A stretch of 64,000 nt of DNA from Actinomycetota bacterium (GCA_023382335.1 JAMCPM010000011.1:65229-129228); one strand, 5' to 3'. Numbered from the stretch's first letter, positions 19,229 through 58,166 are shown. The notes: generated from the letters alone by a model not told the origin. Made by a program: numbers and translations.

Positions 19229-19320
19229 GGAGGGGTGGCGGAGTCCGGCTGAACGCACCGGTCTTGAAAACCGGCAGGGGCGCAAGTCCCTCAAGGGTTC
19301 GAATCCCTTCCCCTCCGCCA
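19229..19320 (+). tRNA. tRNA-Ser (anticodon UGA), long variable arm, CCA encoded
   Basis: GGAGGGG acceptor stem, anticodon loop CUUGAAA, T-arm GGTTCGAATCC, 3' CCGCCA. Confidence 0.85.
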
Positions 19321-38995: not shown

Positions 38996-39091
38996 GGAGA
39001 GGTGGCCGAGTCGGCTGAAGGCGATCGCCTGCTAAGCGATTAAGGGGGTTTTAAGCCTCCTTCGAGGGTTCGAATCCCTCCCTCTCCGCCA
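38996..39091 (+). tRNA. tRNA-Ser (anticodon GCU), long variable arm, CCA encoded
   Basis: GGAGAGG acceptor, anticodon loop CUGCUAA, T-arm GGTTCGAATCC. Confidence 0.85.
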
Positions 39092-39094
39092 ATA

Positions 39095-39574
39095 TCAAGA
39101 ACCTCGCGATATGAAGGATGTTCTGCCGCATGTGTCGACACTGATCGGATGTACCGATCGCTGCTGGGTGGCCGGACCGACCTCGACCGTGCAGTTCATG
39201 CAACGCTTGGCTACCTTGGGAATCTCTGACATGCATTCAGGGTATTTGCGCATCGTCTCGTCGGCTGGCTCTTCCTTCTTCATTCTTTCCATCAGCGCGT
39301 TCACGGGCTTGATCACCAGGAAGAAGACAGCCGCGGCTATGATAACGAAAGCAATAATCGCATTGATGAAGTGCCCGTACAGGAACTGGCTGTTGTTGAT
39401 GGTGAAAGTAAGTCCGGAAAAGTCGGGTTTGCCGCCGATTGCAGCGATGACTGGAGTGATGATGTCGGCGACAAGAGCAGTTATCATCGCGCCGAATGCG
39501 GCCCCGATCACGACGGCGACCGCGAGGTCCAGCATGTTGCCCCTCATAAGAAATTCTTTGAACTCCTTGATCAT
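39095..39574 (-). CDS. mscL: Large-conductance mechanosensitive channel with Cys-containing C-terminal extension
   Basis: MIKEFKEFLMRGNMLDLAVAVVIGAAFG... canonical MscL N-terminus and TM1/TM2; C-terminal CMSEIPKVAKRCMNC. Confidence 0.8.
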   Translation of the reverse strand: MIKEFKEFLMRGNMLDLAVAVVIGAAFGAMITALVADIITPVIAAIGGKPDFSGLTFTINNSQFLYGHFINAIIAFVIIAAAVFFLVIKPVNALMERMKKEEPADETMRKYPECMSEIPKVAKRCMNCTVEVGPATQQRSVHPISVDTCGRTSFISRGS

Positions 39575-39800
39575 GGCTTCCTCCTGCCGTCCAGTGTTTG
39601 TCAGTTCAGCACTCACTGAGTTCTATGCCGGAAATTTTTTACCTCCAAAGACGGGATTTCATGCGCGGCCAGCTTCTGTGATCCATCTTTCCAGGTAACC
39701 TGCCGCGCGGGCGCTTCGATATGCAGGAGCTTTCAGGTATACTGTCCCTTGGCTTTTTCGAGAAGTATCGCCCAAGGGCATTGCCATTCTACTTCCATAC

Positions 39801-39877
39801 GCGCCCGTAGCTCAGTTGGATAGAGTGCTTGACTACGAATCAAGAGGTCACAGGTTCGAATCCTGTCGGGCGCACCA
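39801..39877 (+). tRNA. tRNA-Arg (anticodon ACG)
   Basis: GCGCCCG acceptor, anticodon loop CUACGAA, 3' GGGCGCACCA. Confidence 0.9.
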
Positions 39878-39960
39878 CTTTTTTGTTCCGCGGAGAGTTC
39901 CTTCCTGGTAAAAAACATCTCCGTCTCGCTTTATTCCCGCTTTGTGTTAGTCTTGCCTCC

Positions 39961-40410
39961 ATGAGCGATTACGAGCATTTCATGCATATAGCCCTGAGTG
40001 AGGCACGCATGGCCGCAGAGAGCGGCGAGGTGCCTGTAGGAGCGGTCATAGAGCGCGGGGGAGAAGTGATCGCCGCTGCCGGCAACGAGCGCGAGGAGCG
40101 CAGGGATCCTACCGCCCACGCCGAGATCCTCGCCATCCGCGAGGCGGCAAAACAGCTGGGGGGCTGGCGGCTGCCGGGTTGCACCATCTACGTGACCGTC
40201 GAGCCTTGTCCGATGTGCGCCGGAGCCATCTATCAGGCGCGTATCGAGCGGCTGGTTTTTGGAGCCGTCGACGAGAAAGCGGGGGCCGCCGGCACACTCA
40301 TGGATATCACCCGCGATTCCCGTCTCAATCACCAGACCGAAGTCGTCGCCGGAGTCCTGGCCGAAGAGAGCGCCGCCATCCTCCGGGAATTCTTTTCGCG
40401 GCGCCGCTGA
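39961..40410 (+). CDS. tadA: tRNA-specific adenosine deaminase
   Basis: HAEILAIREAA...VTVEPCPMCAGAI CDA zinc-binding motifs; start trimmed to MSDYEH (longer ORF would overlap the tRNA). Confidence 0.85.
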   Translation: MSDYEHFMHIALSEARMAAESGEVPVGAVIERGGEVIAAAGNEREERRDPTAHAEILAIREAAKQLGGWRLPGCTIYVTVEPCPMCAGAIYQARIERLVFGAVDEKAGAAGTLMDITRDSRLNHQTEVVAGVLAEESAAILREFFSRRR

Positions 40411-40458
40411 TGCCGGTTTCACCTTATGCCCTGCATTGGATAAACTATCATCTGCAGC

Positions 40459-41288
<830 letters not shown>

Positions 41289-41323
41289 ACCCGGGGCGAT
41301 TCAAACAGCGTGTTAAGGTGAAG

Positions 41324-41611
41324 ATGTTACGCCAATGGGGTGATTATATCGTAGATGAGGTCATCTATGTAACTTTCGGTGATACGATGTTGGAGTTTAT
41401 CGGAGTTACCAATCCGTCATCCACAAAGCATGATACGTGGGGCGTAGGTTATAGGATGATCGCCCTCGAAGTTGATGATATGGATGCCGCGGTTACTTAC
41501 TTAAAGAGCAAAGGTATTGAACTGACAACCGGTCCGGCAGTATTGGGTACATCAAAGCGTGCTGAAATAGTTGACCCAGATGGCCTACCAATCGAACTGC
41601 GGCAGTGGTAG
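41324..41611 (+). pseudogene. Glyoxalase/VOC-family fragment (C-terminal module only), probably truncated
   Basis: GDTMLEFIGV...YRMIALEVDDMDAAVTYLKSKGIELTTGP...KRAEIVDPDGLPIELRQW; only ~96 aa; low GC. Confidence 0.45.
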
Positions 41612-41670
41612 AAACATAATAGGAATTTTATTCTCGATCGAACAAATTAACAAAAAGGAGGTGAAAAATT

Positions 41671-42039
41671 ATGAATATGACGAATATTTCGGGACCTGAC
41701 TTTATCACATTACTTGTCAGTGATTTGGAAACGTCATACAACTTCTACAAAGAAAAAATCGGTTTGAGTGAATCGTCCGAAAAACAACCTAATGCGCGTG
41801 CTTTCGCTACAAAACCGTGCGGGTTAGCAATAAGGCAGTCTCCTGATAAGAGCAAGATGGATAATCCGAGTCAAGGAATTGTTATTTGGTTGCGCACTTC
41901 TGACGCAACCGTTCTATACAACGATTTGAAGAAACGGGGAGTTCCTATCGTCGAGGAACTCCGGAAGAGTCCTTTCGGCATGACCTTTTCATTTAAGGAT
42001 CCCGATGGGTACATCATGGCCGTGCATGAAGGTGGCTAA
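41671..42039 (+). CDS. Glyoxalase/bleomycin-resistance (VOC) family protein
   Basis: 122 aa, AGGAGG RBS, markedly AT-richer than flanks. Confidence 0.6.
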   Translation: MNMTNISGPDFITLLVSDLETSYNFYKEKIGLSESSEKQPNARAFATKPCGLAIRQSPDKSKMDNPSQGIVIWLRTSDATVLYNDLKKRGVPIVEELRKSPFGMTFSFKDPDGYIMAVHEGG

Positions 42040-42317
42040 CACAAATAAAGTATTGCGGTCTAACAAGTCACTCCGGTCAATCCTCTGTCCGTCCGTTCGC
42101 CAGTTTGCGGCTCCGGTCGAGTAGCTGAATGGAAATAGAATTTACCGCCAAAGAAAAACTTGAAATCGTCCTTTCCGCTCCGGTTCAAGGCGAGGCGGGC
42201 GGAAGGGGGGTGTGGGGGGAATTCCGCCCCGCCGAGCCCAGAGAGTTCCGTTCGGATATTTTCAAACAGACACCGCCATTGACCCCCCGGACCGGATGTC
42301 CTTCATGGAGTAAACAC

Positions 42318-43103
42318 ATGCAACGTGTCACCTTCACCAACTCCAGAAATCTCACCCTGGTCGGCAACCTCTATCCGTCGACAGCGAAATCAATCGTCAT
42401 CCTGTCCCATGGTTTTACGTCGGATAAATCCTCCCGCGGCCGGCACGAGCTCCTGGCCGGCTCCCTGGTGCGCTCCGGCTTTTCGGCCTTGGCCTTCGAC
42501 TTCAGCGGCAGCGGCGAGAGCGATGACGACCTGCTGACCATCGAGAACCAGGTGGATGACCTGAACTCGGCGGTTGGTTTTGCCGAGTCTGAAGGCTATC
42601 AGGACATCGCCCTTCAGGGGCACAGCCTTGGCGGCCTCATCAGCCTGATGTCGTACTCACCACTTATCATTACCATGGTCCTTACCGGCCCGGTCACAGG
42701 ACCCGTCAATTATTTATGGGAAGAATATTACTCGCGCGACCGTCTCGACGAGCTGAGAAAAAACGGACGGCTCGAGGTCGAAGTGGAATCGCGGTGGCGG
42801 CAGCAGGTTACCGTCGGCAGCCTGCTGCTCGAGACCTTCGCCACGATCGACCAGGAGCGCCTGCTGACGGGCGTGAAATGCCCGCTGCTCATCATCCACG
42901 GCAACAGCAAGGAAGACGAAGAAGAAAGGATGTTACTGGCAACGACCAGGCGGGGAATAAAATACCTGCCTGAAGGCTCGCGGCTGGATGTCATTGAGGA
43001 GGCCGGCCACAGCTTCACCGGCCATATGGATGAAGTTGTCGACAAGACCGTGGACTGGTACACAAATCATTTACCTGACGGAGGAAACCATGAACGTGAG
43101 TGA
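42318..43103 (+). CDS. Alpha/beta-fold hydrolase
   Basis: GHSLGG nucleophile elbow, HGNSKEDEE and GHSF motifs. Confidence 0.7.
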   Translation: MQRVTFTNSRNLTLVGNLYPSTAKSIVILSHGFTSDKSSRGRHELLAGSLVRSGFSALAFDFSGSGESDDDLLTIENQVDDLNSAVGFAESEGYQDIALQGHSLGGLISLMSYSPLIITMVLTGPVTGPVNYLWEEYYSRDRLDELRKNGRLEVEVESRWRQQVTVGSLLLETFATIDQERLLTGVKCPLLIIHGNSKEDEEERMLLATTRRGIKYLPEGSRLDVIEEAGHSFTGHMDEVVDKTVDWYTNHLPDGGNHERE

Positions 43104-43755
43104 GGCGCTTGCATCCCGCTACACCTGCCGGGATTATCAGGCCAAACCGGTCGCCAGGGAAACCCTGAACGCGATCTTCGCGGCTGCCACGCGGGCGCCG
43201 TCATGGGCCAACACGCAGCCTTGGGAGATATATGTAGCCGGAGGAGACACGCTTGAGGGCTTGCGCCAGGCTTGTCTGCAGAACTTCCTGAACGGGGTTT
43301 CCGGAAGCTCCGAGCTTGCCCGTCCGGACAAGTGGCCGGCCGCCATGCAGGAGCGCATGCACAGCCTGGGAGCGGCGCGATTTGAATCCCTGGGGATCGA
43401 GCGCGGCGATGAAGAGGCAAGGAAGGCGATGTCAGAGAACAACAACCGCTTTTTCGGAGCTCCGGCGGTCGCCTATATCTGCATGGACCGCTCGCTGACA
43501 CCCTGGTCTATCTTCGACCTGGGCATGTTGGCCCAGAGCATCATGTTGGCGGCGGAAGAACTGGGCGTGGCGACCTCGATAGCCTACAACCTGGTGATCT
43601 ATCCCGATCTGATCAGAGAGGCGCTGGAAATCCCGGCAGGCCAGATCATCCTCATCGGCATCGCTCTCGGCTACGCCAAGACGGAATCGGTGCAAAACCG
43701 CTTTCGCAGTCCGCGCAGGCCGCTTGAGGAAGCGGTCAGCTTCCACGGTTTCTAA
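43090..43755 (+). CDS. Nitroreductase-family FMN oxidoreductase
   Basis: MNVSEALASRYTCRDYQAKPV...RAPSWANTQPW nitroreductase N-terminal signature. Confidence 0.75.
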   Translation: MNVSEALASRYTCRDYQAKPVARETLNAIFAAATRAPSWANTQPWEIYVAGGDTLEGLRQACLQNFLNGVSGSSELARPDKWPAAMQERMHSLGAARFESLGIERGDEEARKAMSENNNRFFGAPAVAYICMDRSLTPWSIFDLGMLAQSIMLAAEELGVATSIAYNLVIYPDLIREALEIPAGQIILIGIALGYAKTESVQNRFRSPRRPLEEAVSFHGF

Positions 43756-43799
43756 AGTAGCTTTCTGGCGAGCCGCTCTCCGCCCCAACGGTTCGGAGC

Positions 43800-45536
43800 T
43801 TACGTTTGCTCCGCCGCCGGCCGGGCGCCGCGCGCGTCATCATCGGTCGTGCCCCGCTCGGCTTCCGCCACGACCAGCTCGGGCTCGTGCCCGGGATCGA
43901 TATTGGCAAGTTCCGCTTCCAGTTCCATGCCGCTCTCGGTGAGAGCCGGCGCATTGGAACGCCTCAGCCTGATCTCGGGTATCAGGCAGGTCACAAGAAA
44001 TGCTAGCACCATGATGACCGTGCTGGCTATGAATAAGGTGGCGATCGAGGAGCTGAAAGCAACTTTCAGGGTATCGATGAAGTGGTCGAAAGAGCCCAGG
44101 ATCTGGGACTGTGAATCTGCCGGCGCCTGCGCGACTATGGCTGCCTTGATCTGTGCCTGTCCCTCAGGCGTAAGGAAAGTCTGCAGAGTGTTGGAATCGA
44201 TCTTGCTCACGGCATCCGGATTCAATTTGCTCATTGCCTGAACGAAGTTGTCGCTCGACAGGCCGCTCAGCTTGTCTGCCAGCTGGCTGTTCAGCATTCC
44301 GCCGAGGATAGCGCTGCCGACCGTGCTGCCAATGCTTCTGAAGAGCTGTGTGGACGCTGTCACCTGGCCGAGTTGGGAATGGCCGAAGGCGCTTTGGACA
44401 GCGATCATGAAGATAGGCATGGTCATGCCCAGTCCCAGGCCGGTGACAACCATGTTCAGCCGCAATGTGCCGCTGGTTGTGTCAACGCCCATTCGCGACA
44501 TCATGAACAGTCCGACACAGCTGATCGCCATGCCGGTGATTCCTATGATCTTGTATTTGCCTGTACGCGAGACGATCTGGCCGGTGATGACCGACGCTAC
44601 GATCAGGCCGCCCATCAGCGGCGTCAGGATCAGCCCCGAATTCGTCGCCGAGACGCCGACCACACCCTGCGCGAACAGGGGGATGAAAATTATGGCGCCG
44701 AACAACCCCATCGACGAAAGGAAGGTCGCCGCCACCGAAACGCTAAAAACGCGGTTGCGGAAAAGCGACAGCGGCAGGATCGGTTCCTTGGCCTTCATCT
44801 CGGCAACGCCAAAGGCGATAAGCGAAGCCGCCGAAAGCGTGAACAGGCCGATGATGACATCGGAGGTCCACGCATATTCGCTGCCGCCCCAGACGAAGGC
44901 GAGGAGCATCGGTATCAGGCCTGCGGCCAGCAAAAAAGCCCCGGCATAGTCCAGCGCCCGCTGCTTGACGTCAGGCCTGATCCTGGGGAAGCCCAGGCCT
45001 ATGACCGCCAGGGCGAACAGGCCCAGCGGGATATTGATGAAAAAGATCCAGCGCCAGGTGCTGTTGTCGGTGATCCAGCCGCCCATCAGAGGGCCGGCGA
45101 CGCTGGCGAGGCCGAAGGCGCCGCCGATCAGGCCCTGCCATTTGCCACGCTCTGCCGGCGGGAATATGTCTCCTACGGCGGCGACCGAAAGAACCATCAG
45201 CGCGCCGCCGCCGATGCCCTGGAAGCTGCGGAAGGCGATCAGCTGCCCCATGCTCTGGGCAAAACCGCACATCACCGAGCCGGCCAGGAAGATCGTGATC
45301 GCCGCCAGGAAGAAGCTGCGGCGTCCGTAGATGTCGGAGAGTTTGCCGTAGATGGGAACGGTGATGGCGGAGACCAGCATGTAAGCGGTAAAGACCCAGC
45401 TGAAGTGGTCGAGGCCGTTGAGGTCCTGAACTATTTTTGGCATCGCGGTGGCTACGATGGTCGAATCCAGCGCCGCCAATAACATGGCCAGCATCACGCC
45501 GGCCATTACCATGAACTTGCTATTTCTGCTCAACAT
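43800..45536 (-). CDS. MFS transporter, 14-TM DHA2 (EmrB/QacA) drug:H+ antiporter family
   Basis: 578 aa, 14 TM helices, MFS motifs [10 protein letters not shown] and [13 protein letters not shown]. Confidence 0.85.
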
Positions 45537-45543
45537 CTTCTGA

Positions 45544-45789
45544 TCAGGCCTCCGTTTCAGCTATAATCTTACGAATGGAATCGAGCCGGTCGGAAAGGTG
45601 CGTGGCGAACTGTTCCAGCTCGGAAAGTTTGACCATTGCCACCATGTTGTCGCCGAAGCCGAACGTCAGCAGCTTGTCGCCCTTCTCGATGCGCATGCTC
45701 TGGCGCGCCTCGGCCGGGATCACGACCTGGCCTTTTTCCCCTACGGTGGTAGTGCCATAGAAGTGCTCTTCGGCAAGTTTCTTCTTCAT
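45544..45789 (-). CDS. AbrB/MazE/SpoVT-family DNA-binding protein
   Basis: [27 protein letters not shown] swapped-hairpin motif; no adjacent toxin gene. Confidence 0.65.
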
Positions 45790-45929
45790 TCCCGCGTCTT
45801 TCGTAGATTCCTACATGTAGGAAAAGTATAACAATAATTTCTCACCACAGGCAACGCCTTCAGTTGCCGCGGCAGACGCCGTTTGTCTATTGACCCCCTG
45901 ATGTTGGATAATTTCATGTCTGGAGCGGG

Positions 45930-46025
<96 letters not shown>

Positions 46026-46064
46026 TTGGAACATTGGCTTTCCATTGCTTCCAAATGTTTACAC

Positions 46065-46141
<77 letters not shown>

Positions 46142-51249: not shown

Positions 51250-51498
51250 ATGAGCGAAGGAATCGATGTAAAGGCTGATTCTGTCCTCGATGTGCAGGGC
51301 CTTTGTTGCCCGATGCCGGTCGTCAAGGCCAAGAAGGCAATGGACGCCATCGAAGTGGGACAGGTGCTCGAGATCATCGGCACCGACCCCGGTTCGAAAG
51401 GTGACATGCCGGCTTGGGCCAATCGCGCCGGACACGAGTTTCTAGGCTCGACCGAGGAAGGAGAAGTGTTCCATTTTTGGGTTAAGAAAGGAAAGTGA
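51250..51498 (+). CDS. tusA: TusA-like sulfurtransferase
   Basis: GLCCPMPVVKAKKAM CPxP active-site motif; 82 aa. Confidence 0.75.
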   Translation: MSEGIDVKADSVLDVQGLCCPMPVVKAKKAMDAIEVGQVLEIIGTDPGSKGDMPAWANRAGHEFLGSTEEGEVFHFWVKKGK

Positions 51499-51506
51499 AT
51501 TTCTAA

Positions 51507-51974
51507 ATGGCAGACCGTTTAGCCATCATCGCATCGAAGGGCACGCTCGATATGGCCTATCCGCCTCTGATTCTGGCGAGCACGGCCGCGGCCATGGACA
51601 TGGAATGCGCGATATTCTTCACCTTCTACGGTCTGGATATCGTCAATAAGAAAAAGTACGCGAACCTCAAGGTCGCGCCCGTAGGCAATCCTGCCATGCC
51701 GATGCCGGTTCCCAATATCGTCGGCATGATCCCCGGAATGACCGCGGTGGCAAGCAAGATGATGAAAGACATGATGAAGAAGGCCAAACAACCGACCATC
51801 CCCGAGATGGTCAAACTTTGCGCCGAGACAGGCGTAAAATTGTGGCCTTGTGAACTGACATTGCAGGTTATGAGCATCAAACCTGAAGACCTCATTCCAG
51901 AGGTCGACAAGACCTGCGGTGCGGCGGCATTTCTGGATTATGCCGCAGAAGCCAACATCAGTCTGTTCATCTAA
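51507..51974 (+). CDS. DsrE2/DsrE-family (peroxiredoxin-like fold) putative sulfur-relay protein
   Basis: DsrE/DsrF-like architecture; 9 nt downstream of tusA. Confidence 0.55.
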   Translation: MADRLAIIASKGTLDMAYPPLILASTAAAMDMECAIFFTFYGLDIVNKKKYANLKVAPVGNPAMPMPVPNIVGMIPGMTAVASKMMKDMMKKAKQPTIPEMVKLCAETGVKLWPCELTLQVMSIKPEDLIPEVDKTCGAAAFLDYAAEANISLFI

Positions 51975-52002
51975 GCATCAATCGCATGACTGCAAGTTAC
52001 TA

Positions 52003-52033
52003 GAGGCGGGCCCCGTGCCCGCCTCTTTCTATT
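52003..52033 (+). terminator. Rho-independent terminator after the tusA-dsrE2 pair
   Basis: GAGGCGGGC-CCCGT-GCCCGCCTC followed by TTTCTATT. Confidence 0.75.
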
Positions 52034-52093
52034 GACATCAAACGCATTGATGGTAGAGTAGCCCCCGCCGAGCATGAAAGCATCGTCTATGGC

Positions 52094-55000
52094 TTGGTTC
52101 GACCTGGGTGGCTGCATTTGGCGTCAGACAAATCGAAATGGCCGAGTTCCACGATCCTTAAAGTATGTCTGGCTGCGTCCTGGCTTTTGATCATGACAGG
52201 CGCCCTTTATCTCGCCGACTCCCCTCAAGCGTCAGGCGATACATCGCTCCCGGTCCCGGCGGACATCCCTCGGCCGGAAAACGTCGGCGCCGGCTTCTTC
52301 GGCATCAACGCCGAGAGGCCGCATGAGGATGTCTACAACAGCGACATCCTTGCGGCTCCCGATCAGTACGGTTCCGATTACACCATTGAAGCCACGGTCA
52401 GGATCAACGAGACTTCGACCGCCAATGGCACAGCCGGCCTGATCGTCCGCTACGGCGGCGATGACGAGAACTTCTACTACTTTGGCATCTATCCCAATGA
52501 AGACAAGTGGAAGCTGTACAAACCCGGCTTTGCCGATCCGGTGGAGGGCTACTGCAGCGTCGGCCTTGCCCCGCAAGCCTTCGATCTCAAGGTCAGCGTA
52601 ACCGGCAGCAACATCATCGCCTTCATCAATGGCGCGCCCGTCGGCTCGATGGAAGACACATTGCTGCCAGGTGGTGGCGGCGGCCTGCGCCTGCGCAGCT
52701 CTGACACCGTATTCACGGGAGTCAAGATCGACGGCGTCGACCAGAACCTCGCCGCCTGGAGCGCCAGCCATGCCGTTGCCTGGACGGCGGCTTCAGGCAG
52801 CACCGTACACGGGAACGTCCTACTCGATCCCGCGCTGCTGGCAAGCCCGGAGCTGTCGCCCGAGCTGGATGAGCGCTTCCACATGATGTCGGCGATGGGC
52901 GCCAGCCAGGTCCGGTTCATGCTCTCCTGGGCGGAGATCCAGCCCCAGAGCTCCAGTCAGCCGTATGTCTGGCGCTACGCCGACGCCTTCGCCATCGCCG
53001 CCCACAGGTATAATCTCGAGATCGCACCGGTCGCGCTTTTTGCCCCCAGGTGGGCGGTGCGGCCCGAATACCGCGACAGTGTTTTCTATCACGCCTATCC
53101 TCCAGTTGATAACAGTGGTAGTTTTGATACTTCGCGTTTCGCGCAGTTTGCCGCCGCCGGCGCCGGCCGATACCGGCGCGGCGGGCAACTCGCTACTCAG
53201 ATGGGTTGGGGCGCGGAAACCTGCGGTCAGGCGGCCAGCTTCGAGATCGGAGCAGAATTCAACCTGGGAATCGTCTACGAGAAGAGGAGCGGCCGGTGGC
53301 AGGCTACCGGCGCGGGATGGCTCGGCAGCCTCACCCAGTTCGTTGACCTGTTGAAGGCCGGCCATGATGCGGTAAAAGGGGCATGCCCCGATTGCATCGT
53401 CCTTAATGGCGCTCCCGCGGATGACGTCATCACCAATTATGACATCAACGACGACCCCGGCCGCCACGACAGCTATGTCCCTTATCTGGATTCAGACCGG
53501 CTGATGAATCCCGACGGCACTCCCGCCTGGAGACAGACCGTCTGGCAGGGCGTCAACGATCTCTACAGCGAGATCGAGCGCCGCGCCGCGCCGGATAATC
53601 TTCCGGCAAGATATTTCGACGTCCTCAATGTGCACACGTTCATGTGGAAAGGCTACACCGCCGACTGGCCGCCCACGGCTGACGGATATGTCGACTGCTC
53701 CTACTATTCCGATGACTGCTGGAAGCTATGGTATAGCGAGAGGCTGGGGCGGGTGGTGCAGACAATGCGCGACCATAACGATTCCAGGCAGATCTGGTTG
53801 AGCGAGACCGGATTTCCCAGCGCCAGGCCGCCCAACGATAATGAGGGTTTCCTTGGTTTCCTATCTGAGGAAAAGCAGGCGCGGGCGCTGGAATCCGCGT
53901 TCGCCGAGACGGCGAAATTCCCCGAGGTCAAAAAAGTCTTCTGGTGGCAGGGCTACGATTGCCATTATTCCGGGAATCTGGGACTGGTGAGAGCCGACCT
54001 TTCAGCAAAGCCATCATACGCAGCCTATGCCTGGATGGCGGGCAAGAACCAGGCCTTCAGATCGCGCTTTTCGTTTTCCTGGTATGACAACATCGAGGCC
54101 GCCAACTGGGTGCTCATGGCTAATCCCGCATCCGCTACAGGCACGGCGAAGTTCGATCTTGCCGTCGGCGGGCGGCAGCTGGCTGTGCCGTCGCTTACCG
54201 GCGGTCTTGCCGGGGAGGTCCCGCCCGGGCAAGTCCTGTACGCGCGATATCCCGGCCTCATCGGCGGACCGGTTCATGCAGGTTACGAGGCAGGCTCGGG
54301 GGCCATCGCCAGCGAGAGGACGCTCTGGGCGGGCAACTCCCTCGAGGAGGTGGTGGGCACGGAGAGTTCAAGGCTCTCTGACCATTTCTTCTGGACCTGG
54401 TACGACGAACGATCGGCGGGTTATAAAGACTGGATCCTGATCGCCAATCCAGCCTCGACCCCGGTTTACTACAGCGTCAGGGTAGCCGGCGACGGCGGCG
54501 CCACCGGCCGGATCGCACCGGGCGAGATCGTCACGCAGCGCTTTCCCGGCATCATGGGAGGGCCGGTCGAGGTCCAGGCCTGGGCCGACGGCATCGGCGG
54601 CGATCTGCCGGCTGAAGTCATGGCCTCACAGCGAGTGCTGTCCAATGGGGACAAGGCCTTCAACGAGGTGCCGGGCATACCCGCCGCCGAGCTTGGCAGT
54701 GATTACTTGTGGACCTGGTATGACATGCAGAGCACCGGCGCCAGGGACTGGCTGCTGATCGCCAATCCCGCCGGAGCTGCGCCCATCTATTACGAGATAA
54801 GCATCGGCGGCGCTCCGGTCGCAAGTGGCGGCCCCATCTATTCCGGGCAGAGCGTATCGCCGGCGTTCCCCGGAACCATGGCGGGGCCGGTCGAGGTCAA
54901 GACCTTTGCCGACCCCGGGCATCAGGCCGCCGCCAGTTCAATCGCCACCCAACGGGTCATCTGGGATCCCTCATTCGAGGAAGTCCCTGGCTTCCCCAAG

Positions 55001-55321
55001 GCGGAGCTGTCGAATGAGTATCACTGGACCTGGTATGACATGCAGAGCACCGGCGCCCGCAACTGGGTCATCGTCGCAAATCCCCCCGGCGCCGCTCCCA
55101 TCTATTACAAGGTCTGGATGGGTGGGAGGCAGGTCCAGAGTGGGGGGCCCATCGATGGTGGGCAGAACCAGGCCGTTGTCTTCCCGGGATACATGGGCGG
55201 CCCGGTGGAGGTCAGGACTTACAACGACGCCGCATTCACCGTCGCGGCGGGCTCCCTGACCTCCCAGAGGGTCTTATGGAATGGCTACCTCAACGAGGTT
55301 TCTGGCACAAAACTGGATTGA
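52094..55321 (+). CDS. Large secreted/membrane-anchored multidomain protein: N-terminal TM anchor, concanavalin/DUF1080-like domain, TIM-barrel glycoside-hydrolase-like domain, four C-terminal ~106-aa tandem repeat modules
   Basis: 1075-aa ORF (TTG start); repeats share W-T-W-Y-D...L-I-A-N-P...Y-Y...F-P-G-x-M-G-G-P-V-E-V...S-Q-R-V consensus. Confidence 0.6.
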   Translation: MVRPGWLHLASDKSKWPSSTILKVCLAASWLLIMTGALYLADSPQASGDTSLPVPADIPRPENVGAGFFGINAERPHEDVYNSDILAAPDQYGSDYTIEATVRINETSTANGTAGLIVRYGGDDENFYYFGIYPNEDKWKLYKPGFADPVEGYCSVGLAPQAFDLKVSVTGSNIIAFINGAPVGSMEDTLLPGGGGGLRLRSSDTVFTGVKIDGVDQNLAAWSASHAVAWTAASGSTVHGNVLLDPALLASPELSPELDERFHMMSAMGASQVRFMLSWAEIQPQSSSQPYVWRYADAFAIAAHRYNLEIAPVALFAPRWAVRPEYRDSVFYHAYPPVDNSGSFDTSRFAQFAAAGAGRYRRGGQLATQMGWGAETCGQAASFEIGAEFNLGIVYEKRSGRWQATGAGWLGSLTQFVDLLKAGHDAVKGACPDCIVLNGAPADDVITNYDINDDPGRHDSYVPYLDSDRLMNPDGTPAWRQTVWQGVNDLYSEIERRAAPDNLPARYFDVLNVHTFMWKGYTADWPPTADGYVDCSYYSDDCWKLWYSERLGRVVQTMRDHNDSRQIWLSETGFPSARPPNDNEGFLGFLSEEKQARALESAFAETAKFPEVKKVFWWQGYDCHYSGNLGLVRADLSAKPSYAAYAWMAGKNQAFRSRFSFSWYDNIEAANWVLMANPASATGTAKFDLAVGGRQLAVPSLTGGLAGEVPPGQVLYARYPGLIGGPVHAGYEAGSGAIASERTLWAGNSLEEVVGTESSRLSDHFFWTWYDERSAGYKDWILIANPASTPVYYSVRVAGDGGATGRIAPGEIVTQRFPGIMGGPVEVQAWADGIGGDLPAEVMASQRVLSNGDKAFNEVPGIPAAELGSDYLWTWYDMQSTGARDWLLIANPAGAAPIYYEISIGGAPVASGGPIYSGQSVSPAFPGTMAGPVEVKTFADPGHQAAASSIATQRVIWDPSFEEVPGFPKAELSNEYHWTWYDMQSTGARNWVIVANPPGAAPIYYKVWMGGRQVQSGGPIDGGQNQAVVFPGYMGGPVEVRTYNDAAFTVAAGSLTSQRVLWNGYLNEVSGTKLD
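54060..55321 (+). repeat. Four tandem ~318-bp coding repeats (units near 54070, 54387, 54704, 55019)
   Basis: The last two units are near-identical at nucleotide level over ~60 nt (CTGGACCTGGTATGACATGCAGAGCACCGGCGCC...). Confidence 0.7.
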
Positions 55322-55330
55322 CGTCAAGCG

Positions 55331-56611
55331 TCAGGCACGGCGCAGCGAACACTGGTCGCCGCACATGCTGCAGCCATCGGGATCGTCCAGCGGCCTGGCT
55401 TCACGGACAGAGCGCGCGCGCCCGGGATCGAGCGCCAGCGCAAACTGGGCTTCCCAGTCCAGGCTTCTCCTGGCCTCGCCCATGGCCAGATCGCGGTTGC
55501 GTCGTCCCAGCCTGATCATGTCGCCGACGTGGACAGCCAGCCTGGCCGCGATCACGCCTTCGCGCACATCCTCCTTGAAGGGAAGCCCCAGATGCTCCGC
55601 GGGCGTGACGTAACAGATGAAATCAGTGCCGTAGGCGACCGCCCAGGCTGAGCCTATGGCTGCGGTGATGTGGTCATAACCCGGTGCGATGTCGGTAGTG
55701 ATCGGCCCCAGCATGTAGAAAGGCTTGCCTCGGCTCATCTTCTTCTGCAGGACCACATTTGCCTCGATCTCATCGATGGGTATATGGCCGGGCCCCTCGA
55801 GCATCGCCTGAACGCCCGCATCCCTGGCGCGATCCGCCAGGGCGCAGTTGACCAGGAGCTCCTGGATCTGGGCCTGATCGGTTGAATCGGCGGTGGCGCC
55901 GGCCCGCATGCCGTTGCCCAGGCTGAGCACGACTTCATATTCCCGCAATATTTCCAGCAGCCGGTCGAACTCTTCAAACAGCGGATTCTCACGGCCGTTT
56001 TTTTCCATCCATGAGATCATGAAAGCACCGCCGCGGCTGACCAGTCCGCCGTTCCGTCTGCCCTGGCTTTGCAGGACATCGACGGTCTGGCGGTTGACAC
56101 CGCAATGGATGGCCATGAAGCCGATGCCGTCTGCGGCCTGCCGCTCGATTATCTCGAATAGCATCTCTTCGCTCATGTCGACCGCGGCTCCCAGCCTCTC
56201 CGAAGCCTCGGCTCCGGCCTGGTAGAGGGGCACGCTGCCGACGGGCATGCCGGCGGCGCCGACGATGCTCCGGCGGATGTCATCCAGGTCGCCGGCGGTG
56301 CTGAGCTCCATCAGCGTATCGGCGCCGTACTCACGGGCCACTGATGCTTTCTCCAGCTCCATGTCGAGATCGATGATGTCCGACGAGGTGCCGATGCTGG
56401 CGTTGACCTTGGCGCGCAGCCCTTTGCCGATGCCTACCGCGGCAGCCGGCTTGCCGTCGCCAGTGAGGACGACGATGTTCCCTTTTTCGATTCCCCGGCG
56501 GATGAACTCCGGCTCGACTCCCTCAGCGGCGGCGACGCTGCGCATCTCATCCGTGATCTCACCGTCGCGTGCGCGGTCCAGCATGGTTCTTTTTCGCATC
56601 CCTGACTGCAT
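55331..56611 (-). CDS. thiC: Phosphomethylpyrimidine synthase
   Basis: ThiC conserved segments (GVNRQT, radical-SAM-related C-terminal CxxCxxxxC: CSMCGDQC); start set to MQSGMRK preceded by GGGAGAAGAG. Confidence 0.9.
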   Translation of the reverse strand: MQSGMRKRTMLDRARDGEITDEMRSVAAAEGVEPEFIRRGIEKGNIVVLTGDGKPAAAVGIGKGLRAKVNASIGTSSDIIDLDMELEKASVAREYGADTLMELSTAGDLDDIRRSIVGAAGMPVGSVPLYQAGAEASERLGAAVDMSEEMLFEIIERQAADGIGFMAIHCGVNRQTVDVLQSQGRRNGGLVSRGGAFMISWMEKNGRENPLFEEFDRLLEILREYEVVLSLGNGMRAGATADSTDQAQIQELLVNCALADRARDAGVQAMLEGPGHIPIDEIEANVVLQKKMSRGKPFYMLGPITTDIAPGYDHITAAIGSAWAVAYGTDFICYVTPAEHLGLPFKEDVREGVIAARLAVHVGDMIRLGRRNRDLAMGEARRSLDWEAQFALALDPGRARSVREARPLDDPDGCSMCGDQCSLRRA

Positions 56612-56640
56612 CTCTTCTCCCTGTTCGTGCCGTTCCCATA

Positions 56641-56680
56641 AAAACGAGAAAACCCCAGCCGTGGGGCTTGGGGTTTTTGG
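56641..56680 (-). terminator. Intrinsic terminator/attenuator immediately upstream of the thiC RBS (riboswitch expression platform)
   Basis: Minus-strand CCCCAAGCC-CCAC-GGCUGGGG followed by UUUUCUCGUUUUU. Confidence 0.65.
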
Positions 56681-56699
56681 CAGACTCACGTCCAGCCTT

Positions 56700-56880
56700 C
56701 TCGATTCCCCGAAGAACGGCTTTCATTAATGAGTCAGGCAGGTCTTCTGGCTTCCGGATGGATTCCCGTCTCCGCCCTTCCCGGGCGATATGCCCAGTGG
56801 TTGGAAACATCAAGCTGATATCCGGTTACAGCGGCGGGCCCGCGCCGGTATCTCACCGGCTTCCCTATTCTCCCTTTCAG
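56700..56880 (-). promoter_or_regulatory. Probable TPP (THI-box) riboswitch aptamer in the thiC 5' leader
   Basis: ~280-nt structured leader; segments GGGAAGCC-GGUGAGAUACC (cf. GGGGUGCC...CUGAGA.AUACC), AACCGGAU, CCCGGGAAGG (cf. GGGAAG); terminator directly downstream. Confidence 0.5.
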
Positions 56881-56970
56881 GCACCTGACCAAGATATGTG
56901 TCCAGGCGAAAAGATATGCTTCCCGGCGGCGGATTTCAACCAGGCGGCATTTGCCGCGGCCATGGCCTCA

Positions 56971-57567
56971 TCAGGCTTCCAGCAGCTCCAGCCACTTGTC
57001 GATATCAATTTTCCCGACGGCCATCAACTCGATCTTCTCCATCCACAGGTCCTGAAATCTGGCCCTCTGCCCGTCACTGGCGGCGCCGTGAACGACAAGT
57101 TTCATCAAATCAGCCAGAATCTGGCCCTTCTCCTCCGGGAAGGGGATCAGCCCGGGGCGGAACCTGGTCTGCACACTGCGGCCCGTGTCGATCCGCTCGA
57201 ACCGCAGGCACACTCCGCCGCAGCCTTCATCCGCAGGCGCAAACCGGAGAAGGTCTTTTCTTTTGAAAAGAGGGCCCAGTCCCTTGAACCCTGTCCCGGG
57301 AGCGGCGCCGGTGATAAACGTGCAGACCTGGGCCATGACGCCAAGCGCTCCTTCATCAGGTTCACCGTAGACGGTCACACGGATATCGCCGCGCACCGGC
57401 GTGTCATCACCATAGAGGGCTGAGAGCGCCAGCTGGCAGCTCAGATATGCGCCGGTAACCGAAGGACAGGCGTGGCCTGCCAGCTTGACGGCGTCGATGA
57501 ATGAATATTCCATCACGGCATCTTCCTCTCTGAATGCTCCCAGCGTCTCCGCAAGCGGTTCTCTCAT
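56971..57567 (-). CDS. FmdE/FwdE-family protein (GHxCP motif)
   Basis: AGHACPSVTGAY FmdE-domain signature; start ambiguous (M at 57567 or 57513). Confidence 0.55.
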   Translation of the reverse strand: MREPLAETLGAFREEDAVMEYSFIDAVKLAGHACPSVTGAYLSCQLALSALYGDDTPVRGDIRVTVYGEPDEGALGVMAQVCTFITGAAPGTGFKGLGPLFKRKDLLRFAPADEGCGGVCLRFERIDTGRSVQTRFRPGLIPFPEEKGQILADLMKLVVHGAASDGQRARFQDLWMEKIELMAVGKIDIDKWLELLEA

Positions 57568-57785
57568 GCATATGGGCTCCACCTGATTGAAAAAATCCCT
57601 GAATCCGTTCTCTCGGTCCATGAGTTCACAACACCTTTCTGATAAACAAGACAATCTGAAGTTACCCGGTTTGCGTCAAAAAAATATGATTATCATCACG
57701 CCACCGGGTATTGGTTCGCGCCCCCGGCCGTTGAAAATTGACAGGCGGCATACCGGAGTTATAGATTCAGGCCAGGGTCACAGAT

Positions 57786-58166
57786 ATGCCGGAAGAAGAA
57801 AAGAAAAAGCTGCTCATCCTCCAGACCAGCGGCATCAGGGAGCCGAGGAGGACCTACGCACCCCTGTATATCGCCACCACCGCCGCCGTCATGGACCTTG
57901 ACGTCACAATCTGGTTTACCATGGAGGGTGTCTCGCAACTCAAGAAGGGCGCCGCCGAGAAGATCGAACTGGTGCCTGGCACCGGCGTCACCCTGCAGAC
58001 ATGGCTCGACCGGGCCCGCAAGGCCGGCGTCAAATTCATGTCCTGCGCCCAGGCGATGGAAGCGGAGGGCCTGACTGTCGAGGATCTGGTCGAGGGCTGC
58101 GAAATGGCTGGGGCGGCAGGGATCATTGAGCTGTCGTTCGAGGCCGACCAGGTCATGTATTTCTAG
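57786..58166 (+). CDS. DsrE/DsrF-like family protein
   Basis: 126 aa; KKLLILQTSG...YAPLYIATTAAVMDLDVTIWFTMEGV pattern of the DsrE fold. Confidence 0.55.
   Translation: MPEEEKKKLLILQTSGIREPRRTYAPLYIATTAAVMDLDVTIWFTMEGVSQLKKGAAEKIELVPGTGVTLQTWLDRARKAGVKFMSCAQAMEAEGLTVEDLVEGCEMAGAAGIIELSFEADQVMYF

What the first reader, a model, noticed from the sequence alone, without database searches (positions are those of the whole stretch)
52094..55321. 1075-aa secreted multidomain protein ending in four ~106-aa tandem modules of an unrecognised repeat family
The repeats share a strict consensus (W-T-W-Y-D...W-L-I-A-N-P...I-Y-Y...F-P-G-x-M-G-G-P-V-E-V...S-Q-R-V-L) and are arranged head-to-tail at ~318-bp period (54070, 54387, 54704, 55019). 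The two distal units are near-identical at DNA level. The modules follow a concanavalin/DUF1080-like domain and a TIM-barrel hydrolase-like domain, so they may be a carbohydrate- or cell-surface-binding module family. The DNA identity also makes this a likely site of repeat-number variation or assembly collapse.
Basis: seen in the sequence. Interest (0 to 1): 0.6.

Follow-up and report, generated by a model that had tools for sequence, protein, structure and literature searches.

The report
Four-unit sugar-binding surface anchor module
The tail of this secreted enzyme is a fixed set of four related beta-sandwich units that fold into one rigid body and is reused on hundreds of unrelated secreted proteins of an uncultured actinobacterial lineage, most likely to hold them on the cell's own sugar-rich envelope; it is not an unstable DNA repeat.

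Summary
The 1075-aa ORF (52094-55321, +) and its four C-terminal ~105-aa units are real: units are 35-55% identical, and the weakest pair gives BLASTP E=2e-14. The DNA claim is wrong. The unit DNA is only 58-72% identical, with no exact shared word longer than about 12 nt, so slippage or assembly collapse is unlikely here. Pfam, NCBIfam and PDB sequence searches do not recognise the units. The four-unit set is an old, fixed cassette. A unit profile finds 1252 representative proteins; of 236 examined, 210 carry four units and 6 carry eight, usually in the order 1-2-3-4. AlphaFold2 models the cassette as one rigid all-beta body (pLDDT 96.6, pTM 0.93). One unit matches TM1070, an ASRT/"ASRAH" family protein that crystallises as a tetramer. 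The units also carry the two ASRAH signature residues, but profile-profile comparison is inconclusive. The cassette is fused to dozens of unrelated secreted domains, including six kinds of peptidoglycan hydrolase. It occurs in at least 13 loci in one MAG and only in Thermoleophilia-like MAGs. Best reading: a pseudo-tetrameric, ASRAH-like glycan-binding module that anchors exoproteins to the cell envelope. Here the cargo is a CBM66-like domain plus a PslG-like clan GH-A TIM barrel. This is a new variant of a known kind, of moderate interest.

The parts
52002..52026 (+). Terminator-like hairpin closing the upstream TusA/DsrE2 unit
   Evidence: Consensus scan only: 10-bp stem with 8 GC pairs, followed by a T-rich tail.
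52032..52059 (+). Promoter-like site (TTGACA-16-TAGAGT, with TG) upstream of the ORF. It suggests the gene is its own transcription unit.
   Evidence: 10 of 12 positions match; sequence read. This is a consensus match, not proof.
52094..55321 (+). ORF of 1075 aa. The TTG start is the most upstream in-frame start, so the exact start is uncertain.
   Evidence: Eight orthologues of 59-79% identity share the architecture. One lies in a syntenic context in MAG JAJZQT.
52154..52216 (+). Hydrophobic N-terminal segment (aa 21-41), a signal peptide or signal anchor
   Evidence: Read from the sequence. Modelled as a helix at aa 19-40. It aligns with the hydrophobic N-termini of orthologues. 156 of 201 long family members have such a segment.
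52289..52738 (+). CBM66 / LamG-like beta-sandwich domain (aa ~66-215)
   Evidence: Profile vs PDB 4azz, 4b1l and 4b1m (CBM66 of B. subtilis levanase): E=1.7e-9. Foldseek: TMt 0.70-0.72, rmsd 2.3-2.7 A. Paralogues hit Laminin_G_3.
52826..54058 (+). Clan GH-A-like (beta/alpha)8 barrel (aa ~245-655) with no Pfam or NCBIfam family. The putative acid/base is Glu388 (nt 53255-53257, motif FEIGAEFN). The putative nucleophile is Glu571 (nt 53804-53806, motif WLSETG).
   Evidence: Alternating beta/alpha pattern in the AF2 model; model confidence is moderate (pLDDT 69, pTM 0.70). Foldseek best hit is PslG GH39 (5bx9), E=4.4e-12, followed by GH2, GH113, GH5, GH164, GH1 and Cwp19. E388 and E571 are invariant in 12 homologues.
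54068..54385 (+). Unit 1 of the tetrad (aa 659-764), the most divergent unit
54386..54703 (+). Unit 2 of the tetrad (aa 765-870)
54704..55018 (+). Unit 3 of the tetrad (aa 871-975)
55019..55318 (+). Unit 4 of the tetrad (aa 976-1075), which ends at the stop codon

Best explanation
The four C-terminal units are eight-stranded beta-sandwiches of the ASRAH (ASRT/TM1070-like) type. They pack into one rigid pseudo-tetramer within a single polypeptide.

By analogy with the TM1070 homotetramer, each unit contributes a cleft whose walls are partly formed by the neighbouring unit. That would explain why the number four is fixed. The cassette would present several sugar-binding sites.

I propose that it binds a glycan of the producer's own envelope, either peptidoglycan or a lineage-specific wall polymer. 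It would then work as a non-covalent surface anchor for whatever secreted domain is attached. That is the role SLH triplets and CWB2 triplets play in Firmicutes.

In this gene the anchored cargo is a CBM66-like lectin domain plus a PslG-like clan GH-A glycosidase. The protein is therefore most likely a cell-surface-retained polysaccharide hydrolase.

Shown:
- the repeats;
- the fixed tetrad and the positional orthology of its units;
- the confident rigid model;
- the fold match to TM1070;
- the diversity of fusion partners, the paralogue expansion and the lineage restriction.

Inferred:
- homology to ASRAH;
- sugar binding;
- the envelope as the ligand.
For: 1. Fixed cassette.
- 103 of 120 close homologues have four units; the 15 with three are mostly gene fragments.
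- 210 of 236 examined proteins have four units and 6 have eight.
- An independent set shows the order 1-2-3-4 in 90 of 109 proteins and 12341234 in doubled ones.
- Unit i best matches unit i of another protein in 91-98 of 99 cases.

2. One rigid body.
- AF2 on 96 sequences gives pLDDT 96.6 and pTM 0.93, with eight strands per unit.

3. ASRAH link.
- The only single-domain PDB match is 1nc7_B (TM1070): prob 0.99, TMt 0.58.
- TM1070 is an ASRT orthologue that crystallises as a tetramer with a ligand cleft at the dimer interface. ASRAH domains elsewhere occur 'as dyads or tetrads', the tetrads fused to secreted N-acetylmuramoyl-L-alanine amidases (PMC2739507).
- Both ASRAH signature residues are nearly invariant in the units: Trp after a polar residue in strand 1 (T-W of WTWYD, W5) and Asn at the end of strand 2 (N21 of ANP).
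- One family member gives a marginal Pfam DUF5719 hit inside unit 3 (26.7 bits against a 26.2 cutoff).

4. Anchor-like usage.
- Partners include Amidase_2, SLT, M23, CHAP, SpoIID and glucosaminidase.
- They also include proteases of families M4, S8, S53, A4 and C14.
- NosD beta-helices, PD40/BNR/LVIVD/FG-GAP propellers and Ig-like domains occur as well.
- So do GH114, GH17, a multicopper oxidase and cytochrome c.

5. Placement.
- The cassette is terminal in about 90% of proteins. In about ten it is N-terminal right after the signal peptide, or internal, still in order 1-2-3-4.

6. Expansion and restriction.
- 78% of long members have a hydrophobic N-terminus.
- At least 13 loci occur in one MAG and 4-8 in several others, often as adjacent genes.
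- All 18 assemblies with hits are MAGs. Fourteen are labelled Actinomycetes, Actinomycetota, Thermoleophilia or Gaiellales, three only 'bacterium', and one 'uncultured archaeon'.
Against: - No ligand or localisation data exist, and every organism involved is uncultured.
- Sequence-level homology to ASRT is not demonstrated. Pfam ASRT (PF07100) is not hit by any of 63 units at E<=1.
- hhalign of the unit profiles against an ASRT alignment gives only P=0.04-0.06, although in the expected register (reversed control P=0.2-0.4).
- I could not inspect model coordinates. The tetramer-like packing and the clefts are inferred from pTM and from the literature, not seen.
- No phage endolysin or viral contig carries the module. 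Such a hit would have been independent support for wall binding.
- NosD-like and propeller partners dominate, so binding to an S-layer or to another protein is not excluded.
Confidence: 0.55

Rival explanations
1. Substrate-targeting carbohydrate-binding module. The tetrad would bind the insoluble polysaccharide that the attached glycosidase degrades, as a classical CBM does, rather than the cell's own envelope.
For: - The unit has a beta-sandwich fold with conserved aromatic and polar residues.
- In this protein it follows a CBM66-like domain and a GH-A barrel.
- ASRAH domains are predicted sugar binders.
Against: - CAZymes are a small minority of the partners. Only GH114, GH17 and this GH-A-like family were seen.
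- Most partners are peptidoglycan hydrolases, proteases, propellers, beta-helices, cytochrome c or a Cu-oxidase. One external substrate cannot explain that range.
- Three paralogues of this same enzyme lack the module altogether.
Confidence: 0.15
2. Protein-protein docking or lattice module. The tetrad would bind an S-layer or scaffold protein, or self-assemble into a surface lattice. It would display varied passenger domains, like a dockerin or an S-layer crystallisation domain.
For: - It has the same 'many cargos, one terminal module' pattern.
- Some proteins consist only of a signal peptide plus two tetrads (P0134, P0137) and could be structural.
- The module is a rigid compact body.
Against: - The fold and signature residues point to a small-molecule or sugar-binding superfamily.
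- Six different peptidoglycan-hydrolase families are among the partners. That is typical of wall-glycan-binding anchors.
- No conserved partner gene was seen next to the loci, although neighbours were not examined in depth.
Confidence: 0.17
3. C-terminal secretion or sorting signal, comparable to the T9SS C-terminal domain or to sortase-type signals.
For: - In about 90% of members the module ends within 0-4 residues of the C-terminus.
- The cargos are diverse.
Against: - 420 aa is far too large for a signal.
- In about ten representatives the cassette is N-terminal or internal, with the same unit order.
- There is no terminal TM helix or sorting motif.
- The proteins carry ordinary N-terminal hydrophobic signal sequences.
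Confidence: 0.03
4. A recently amplified, unstable tandem DNA repeat whose copy number varies or was collapsed by assembly.
For: - The coding repeats are head-to-tail with a 315-324 nt period.
- One MAG (JAJYLW) has genes with one or two hybrid units (L056, L062), so recombination or collapse between units can happen somewhere in the family.
Against: - Unit DNA identity is 58-72%, and the longest exact words are about 12 nt.
- TRF finds no array.
- All seven full-length orthologues have four units.
- Positional orthology of the units across about 100 proteins shows that the duplication is ancient.
Confidence: 0.02

Closest known systems
ASRAH superfamily (ASRT / TM1070, Pfam PF07100 DUF1362; De Souza, Iyer & Aravind 2009, PMC2739507), especially its 'tetrad' family fused to secreted amidases in Chloroflexi
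   Same: - An eight-stranded beta-sandwich of about 105 aa.
- A conserved Trp in strand 1 and a conserved Asn at the end of strand 2.
- Foldseek prob 0.99 and TMt 0.58 to 1nc7.
- Fourfold organisation: a homotetramer in TM1070, four tandem copies here.
- Extracellular versions are attached to an N-acetylmuramoyl-L-alanine amidase. P0132 and P0139 of this family also carry Amidase_2.
- A sugar-binding role is predicted.
   Different: - No significant sequence or profile match to ASRT.
- The H/C ligand residues of the ASRT signature are replaced.
- The family has its own motifs: WTWYD, GGPVEV, SQRVL and FNEVPG.
- It is fused to dozens of domain families rather than only to amidases.
- It is massively expanded in one uncultured actinobacterial lineage.
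SLH domain triplets (PF00395) and CWB2 triplets (PF04122) of Firmicutes
   Same: - A fixed number of tandem repeats folds into one pseudo-symmetric body.
- The module is terminal.
- It is shared by many unrelated exoproteins and wall hydrolases of one genome.
- It is lineage-restricted.
- Cwp19 of C. difficile (GH-like TIM barrel plus CWB2) is even among the fold matches of this protein's catalytic domain.
   Different: - The folds are unrelated: helical for SLH, alpha/beta for CWB2.
- They have three repeats rather than four.
- Their ligands are known (pyruvylated SCWP, PSII), whereas here the ligand is unknown.
- This comparison rests on established knowledge, not on a test made here.
DUF5719 (PF18986), an actinobacterial protein family that is probably the ASRAH 'dyad' lipoprotein of the 2009 paper
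   Same: - One family member (P0029) hits the DUF5719 model inside unit 3 just above the gathering score.
- Both are actinobacterial and secreted.
   Different: - Only 1 hit among more than 200 proteins examined.
- 0 of 63 isolated units match.
- The equation DUF5719 = ASRAH family 3 is my inference and was not checked.
FirrV-1-C4 (UniProt Q6XLX4) of Feldmannia irregularis virus a
   Same: It is the only whole-cassette structural match in any library available: TMq 0.60 over 451 columns, E=2e-8, comparing one predicted structure with another.
   Different: - 12% identity.
- A virus of a eukaryotic alga.
- Function unknown.
- I could not retrieve its sequence to test for homology.
PslG (GH39) and CBM66, for the cargo part of this protein
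   Same: - TIM barrel with Glu at the ends of strands 4 and 7.
- A CBM66-like sandwich.
   Different: - 16% identity to PslG and 20% to CBM66.
- No Pfam or CAZy-type model hits the barrel.
- The acid/base motif is G-[APSNH]-E-[FY]-N instead of N-E-P.

Membership tests
ASRAH / ASRT-like beta-sandwich superfamily | Eight-stranded beta-sandwich with the TM1070 fold | tested here: met
   The AF2 model has eight strands per unit. Foldseek match of one unit to 1nc7_B: prob 0.99, TMt 0.58, rmsd 3.9 A over 119 columns. Strand topology could not be inspected directly.
ASRAH / ASRT-like beta-sandwich superfamily | Conserved Trp, usually after a polar residue, at the start of strand 1 | tested here: met
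   W5 of the unit (T-W in WTWYD) is at least 90% conserved across 63 units. The definition is taken from PMC2739507.
ASRAH / ASRT-like beta-sandwich superfamily | Nearly invariant Asn at the end of strand 2, followed by a tight turn | tested here: met
   N21 (A-N-P) is at least 90% conserved. Strand 2 ends there in the model. hhalign aligns it with the ASRT Asn.
ASRAH / ASRT-like beta-sandwich superfamily | Significant sequence or profile similarity to ASRT (PF07100) or to other ASRAH families | tested here: inconclusive
   No PF07100 hit in 63 units at E<=1. hhalign P=0.04-0.06 against 0.2-0.4 for reversed controls. The Chloroflexi amidase-linked ASRAH sequences, the likely bridge, could not be obtained.
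ASRAH / ASRT-like beta-sandwich superfamily | Occurs as a tetramer, dyad or tetrad | tested here: met
   Four units, or 2x4, in 216 of 236 proteins. pTM 0.93 for the four-unit body.
ASRAH / ASRT-like beta-sandwich superfamily | Binds a sugar or small molecule in a cleft on one sheet | not testable with these tools
   This needs coordinates with docking, or binding assays.
Non-covalent cell-wall anchoring modules (functional class: SLH, CWB2, LysM, GW, SH3b) | One module shared by many unrelated secreted proteins of one genome, including autolysins | tested here: met
   Dozens of partner Pfam families, including six kinds of peptidoglycan hydrolase. At least 13 loci in MAG JAJYLW.
Non-covalent cell-wall anchoring modules (functional class: SLH, CWB2, LysM, GW, SH3b) | Demonstrated binding to peptidoglycan or a secondary wall polymer | not testable with these tools
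No phage lysin carrying the module was found.
Known Pfam / NCBIfam repeat or CBM / Big-like families | A match above the family threshold | tested here: not met
   No PDB sequence match to the unit profile even at E<=10.
Clan GH-A glycoside hydrolases (cargo domain) | (beta/alpha)8 barrel with the catalytic Glu residues at the ends of strands 4 and 7 | tested here: met
   AF2 secondary-structure pattern and Foldseek hits, all from clan GH-A, with PslG first. E388 and E571 are invariant. Model confidence is only moderate (pLDDT 69). Activity is untested.

The most novel reading that the evidence does not exclude
The tetrad would be the defining surface-anchoring system of an uncultured Thermoleophilia-like lineage. 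It would be a single-chain pseudo-tetramer of ASRAH-like sandwiches that recognises a lineage-specific wall glycopolymer. It would organise essentially the whole exoproteome (autolysins, proteases, redox proteins, glycosidases) on the cell surface. That would make it a fourth kind of repeat-built wall anchor, beside SLH, CWB2 and choline-binding repeats. It would also be the first functional assignment for extracellular ASRAH domains.
Probability: 0.4. Interest if true: 0.65.

Novelty: new variant of a known kind. Interest (0 to 1): 0.5.

Why it matters
- **A handle on an unknown envelope.** If the anchor reading is right, the cassette marks the surface proteome of a widespread but uncultured actinobacterial lineage from subsurface and sediment habitats. 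Nothing is known about the envelope of these organisms. Any protein carrying the cassette can be predicted to be surface-exposed.
- **Why the number is four.** The cassette is a clean example of an oligomer (the ASRT/TM1070 tetramer) being replaced by four fused, diverged copies in one chain. That would explain the fixed number four.
- **A gap in the databases.** The family has 1252 representative clusters at 50% identity but no Pfam or NCBIfam model. The GH-A-like catalytic domain in front of it has none either.
- **A practical point.** The repeat is not an assembly hazard at this locus.

Tried and rejected
- **Tandem DNA repeat:** TRF finds nothing at the 318-bp period.
- **Family searches on the units:** Pfam and NCBIfam on the whole protein, on each unit and on 63 units give no family.
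- **PDB by sequence:** the unit profile finds nothing even at E<=10.
- **PDB by fold, whole cassette:** only generic tandem Ig/FN3 hits with TM 0.1-0.2, plus the single-unit hit 1nc7.
- **Viral contigs (IMG/VR):** no relative, so no support from phage lysins.
- **Other copies in the window:** none.
- **Exact look-up of the window protein in public assemblies:** not on record.
- **Literature:** searches for the motif, for Thermoleophilia envelope or S-layer, for ASRAH and for DUF5719 found only the 2009 ASRAH paper. The FirrV-1 search led only to an unrelated protein, B30.
- **Profile-profile comparison with ASRT:** not significant.
- **Supplement of the ASRAH paper:** it holds no sequences, so the Chloroflexi amidase tetrads could not be compared.
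- **Structure of a single unit:** not predicted. The second and last prediction job went to the N-terminal 658 aa.
Full report
**1. The observation**

- The ORF 52094-55321 (+) exists and encodes 1075 aa from a TTG start.
- A terminator-like hairpin (52002-52026) and a promoter-like site (52032-52059) precede it, so it looks like its own transcription unit.
- Residues 21-41 are strongly hydrophobic. They align with the hydrophobic N-termini of orthologues.
- The C-terminal 417 residues are four head-to-tail units: aa 659-764, 765-870, 871-975 and 976-1075, i.e. nt 54068, 54386, 54704 and 55019 to 55318.
- The units share 35-55% identity. The most divergent pair gives BLASTP E=2e-14.
- The DNA statement is wrong.
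  - Pairwise unit DNA identity is 58-69% over global alignments.
  - It is at most 72% over the best 193-nt stretch.
  - Identical words are no longer than about 12 nt.
  - Tandem Repeats Finder reports no such array.

**2. The tetrad is an ancient, fixed cassette**

- A search with the four-unit region found 184 proteins, mostly from Thermoleophilia MAGs. They are 40-60% identical over 98-100% of the query.
- Of the 120 listed, 103 have exactly four units. The 15 with three are mostly fragments that begin at residue 1-2.
- The cassette ends 0-4 residues before the C-terminus in nearly all of them.
- A profile of 63 units was scored against 1.84 billion cluster representatives. It found 1252 proteins at E<=1e-3 and 517 at E<=1e-30.
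- Among the 236 proteins I could examine, 210 have four units and 6 have eight.
- Unit i of one protein is most similar to unit i of other proteins in 98, 91, 93 and 97 of 99 cases.
- With position-specific HMMs built on one set and applied to an independent set:
  - 90 of 109 proteins read 1-2-3-4;
  - two doubled proteins read 12341234;
  - cassettes placed N-terminally or internally still read 1-2-3-4.
- All seven full-length orthologues of the window protein have four units.
- Copy-number instability is therefore not a property of this locus.
- The only hint of inter-unit recombination or collapse is in one MAG (JAJYLW). There, genes with one or two hybrid units occur.

**3. Structure**

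- AlphaFold2 on a 96-sequence alignment models the cassette with mean pLDDT 96.6 and pTM 0.93.
- The model is all-beta, with eight strands per unit.
- A pTM this high for 421 residues means the four units are placed confidently relative to one another. They form one rigid body, not beads on a string.
- Foldseek against the PDB finds no chain resembling the whole body. The hits are tandem Ig/FN3 arrays with TM 0.1-0.2.
- One unit matches TM1070 (1nc7_B) with probability 0.99 and TMt 0.58.
- In the viral predicted-structure library a single protein matches the whole cassette. It is FirrV-1-C4 of a brown-algal phaeovirus (TMq 0.60, 451 columns, 12% identity). I could not follow this up.

**4. The link to a described superfamily**

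[quoted passage not shown] I confirmed the relation of the two PDB sequences.
- De Souza, Iyer and Aravind (2009, PMC2739507) defined the ASRAH superfamily from it. Their points:
  - The fold is an eight-stranded beta-sandwich.
  - Its signatures are a conserved Trp after a polar residue in strand 1 and a nearly invariant Asn at the end of strand 2.
  - TM1070 is a tetramer. Each subunit has a deep cleft whose walls are partly formed by the dimer interface.
  - Extracellular ASRAH domains 'always occur either as dyads or as tetrads'.
  - The tetrads are fused to secreted N-acetylmuramoyl-L-alanine amidases of Chloroflexi.
  - They predicted sugar or peptidoglycan binding.
- The units here have both signatures: T-W in WTWYD, and the Asn of A-N-P. 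Both are at least 90% conserved.
- They also have the eight strands, the fold match and the fourfold organisation.
- Members of this family also carry Amidase_2 (P0132, P0139).
- One member gives a marginal DUF5719 hit inside unit 3.
- Sequence-level proof is lacking.
  - PF07100 is not hit by any unit.
  - hhalign of the unit profiles against an ASRT alignment gives P=0.04-0.06, in the expected register.
  - Reversed controls give P=0.2-0.4.
- I therefore treat ASRAH membership as probable (about 0.65), not established.
- If the register anchored on the conserved Asn is right, the invariant W16 of strand 2 lies on the same face as the ligand-contacting His and Cys of ASRT. That is an inference only.

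**5. How the cassette is used**

- Pfam census of partners:
  - NosD/right-handed beta-helix domains, the commonest partner;
  - PD40/TolB, BNR/PSII_BNR, LVIVD and FG-GAP propellers;
  - Ig-like domains;
  - peptidoglycan hydrolases of six kinds (Amidase_2, SLT, M23, CHAP, SpoIID, glucosaminidase);
  - proteases (M4, S8, pro-kumamolisin, A4, C14, C92);
  - GH114, GH17, a multicopper oxidase, cytochrome c and CAP.
- 156 of 201 long members have a hydrophobic N-terminus.
- In GTDB species representatives, a scan limited to one peptide pattern found 68 loci in 18 assemblies.
  - All 18 are MAGs. Fourteen are labelled Actinomycetes, Actinomycetota, Thermoleophilia or Gaiellales, three only 'bacterium', and one 'uncultured archaeon'.
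  - There are at least 13 loci in JAJYLW, 7-8 in two other MAGs, and 3-6 in several more.
  - Adjacent genes often both carry the cassette.
  - No cultured species appeared.
- A 79%-identical orthologue sits in the same TusA-DsrE2 / ABC-transporter context in MAG JAJZQT. The window therefore comes from a relative of that organism.
- This pattern is the hallmark of non-covalent envelope anchors such as SLH or CWB2 triplets:
  - one terminal module;
  - dozens of unrelated secreted cargos, including autolysins;
  - many paralogues per genome;
  - strict lineage restriction.
- A substrate-targeting CBM would not be attached to proteases, amidases and cytochromes.
- A C-terminal sorting signal would not be 420 aa long. 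Nor would it work equally from N-terminal or internal positions.
- Binding to an S-layer or other protein partner remains a real alternative.

**6. The cargo in this gene**

- A profile of the N-terminal 658 aa and its 11 homologues hits CBM66 of B. subtilis levanase (4azz, E=1.7e-9) for aa ~88-215.
- The AF2 model of this region has pLDDT 69.4 and pTM 0.70.
  - It superposes on CBM66 at 2.3-2.7 A.
  - It shows a (beta/alpha)8 pattern for aa ~245-655.
- The best fold match for the barrel is PslG, the GH39 Psl-exopolysaccharide hydrolase (E=4.4e-12). Other clan GH-A enzymes and C. difficile Cwp19 follow.
- Glu388 (FEIGAEFN) and Glu571 (WLSETG) are invariant. They sit at the ends of strands 4 and 7, the clan GH-A catalytic positions.
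- No Pfam or NCBIfam model covers this barrel.
- Only 11 homologues were found. Three of them are shorter paralogues without the tetrad.
- The protein is thus most likely a surface-retained polysaccharide hydrolase of unknown specificity.

**7. Verdict**

- The repeats are real and unrecognised by current family databases.
- They are not a fragile DNA repeat.
- They are best understood as a divergent, greatly expanded tetrad branch of the ASRAH beta-sandwich superfamily, used as a general surface anchor by an uncultured actinobacterial lineage.
- That makes it a new variant of a known kind. It is interesting to envelope and domain-evolution specialists, but it rests on inference until binding is tested.

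Noticed in passing
window 56720-56903 (-) and 55331-56689 (-): A cobalamin riboswitch (RF00174, 111.9 bits) lies directly upstream of the ThiC-family gene that converges on the studied ORF. The protein passes the NCBIfam ThiC equivalog (576 bits). It also scores 540 bits on the BzaB-like model, below that model's 700-bit cutoff. A ThiC paralogue under B12 control suggests a benzimidazole (B12 lower-ligand) synthase rather than thiamine ThiC.
   Followed up: partly
window 51250-51498 (+) and 51507-51974 (+): A TusA-like sulfurtransferase and a DsrE2-like sulfur carrier lie immediately upstream. The same arrangement, together with the ABC transporter pair, occurs in MAG JAJZQT010000046 (L069).
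   Followed up: partly
window 52826-54058 (+), aa ~245-655 of the ORF: The TIM-barrel domain has no Pfam or NCBIfam family, and only 11 homologues were found in the 5.8-billion-protein index. Its acid/base motif is G-[APSNH]-E-[FY]-N rather than the usual N-E-P of clan GH-A. It may be an undescribed GH family related to GH39/PslG.
   Followed up: partly
model of window aa 655-1075 vs BFVD entry Q6XLX4: The whole four-unit body matches FirrV-1-C4 of Feldmannia irregularis virus a (TMq 0.60, 451 columns, 12% identity). It is the only whole-cassette structural match found anywhere. The meaning is unknown.
   Followed up: no
L056 4741-6588 (+), L062 5566-6333 (+) (MAG JAJYLW): Some family members in this MAG carry only one or two units. 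The first looks like a unit-1/unit-3 hybrid. This could be a deletion by recombination between units, a pseudogene, or assembly collapse in a genome with at least 13 paralogous loci.
   Followed up: partly
P0134, P0137, P0140, P0176 (family members): Some proteins consist of little more than a signal peptide and two tetrads. The first tetrad is divergent (unit order such as 3222 or 2324). They could be structural or cross-linking surface proteins.
   Followed up: no
window 38996-46138 (+) and 19229-19317 (+): Six tRNA genes were detected, five of them clustered between 38996 and 46138.
   Followed up: no
window 57786-58166 (+): A second DsrE-like small ORF lies downstream of the FmdE-like gene (56971-57654, -). 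The similarity was judged by eye from the translation only.
   Followed up: no
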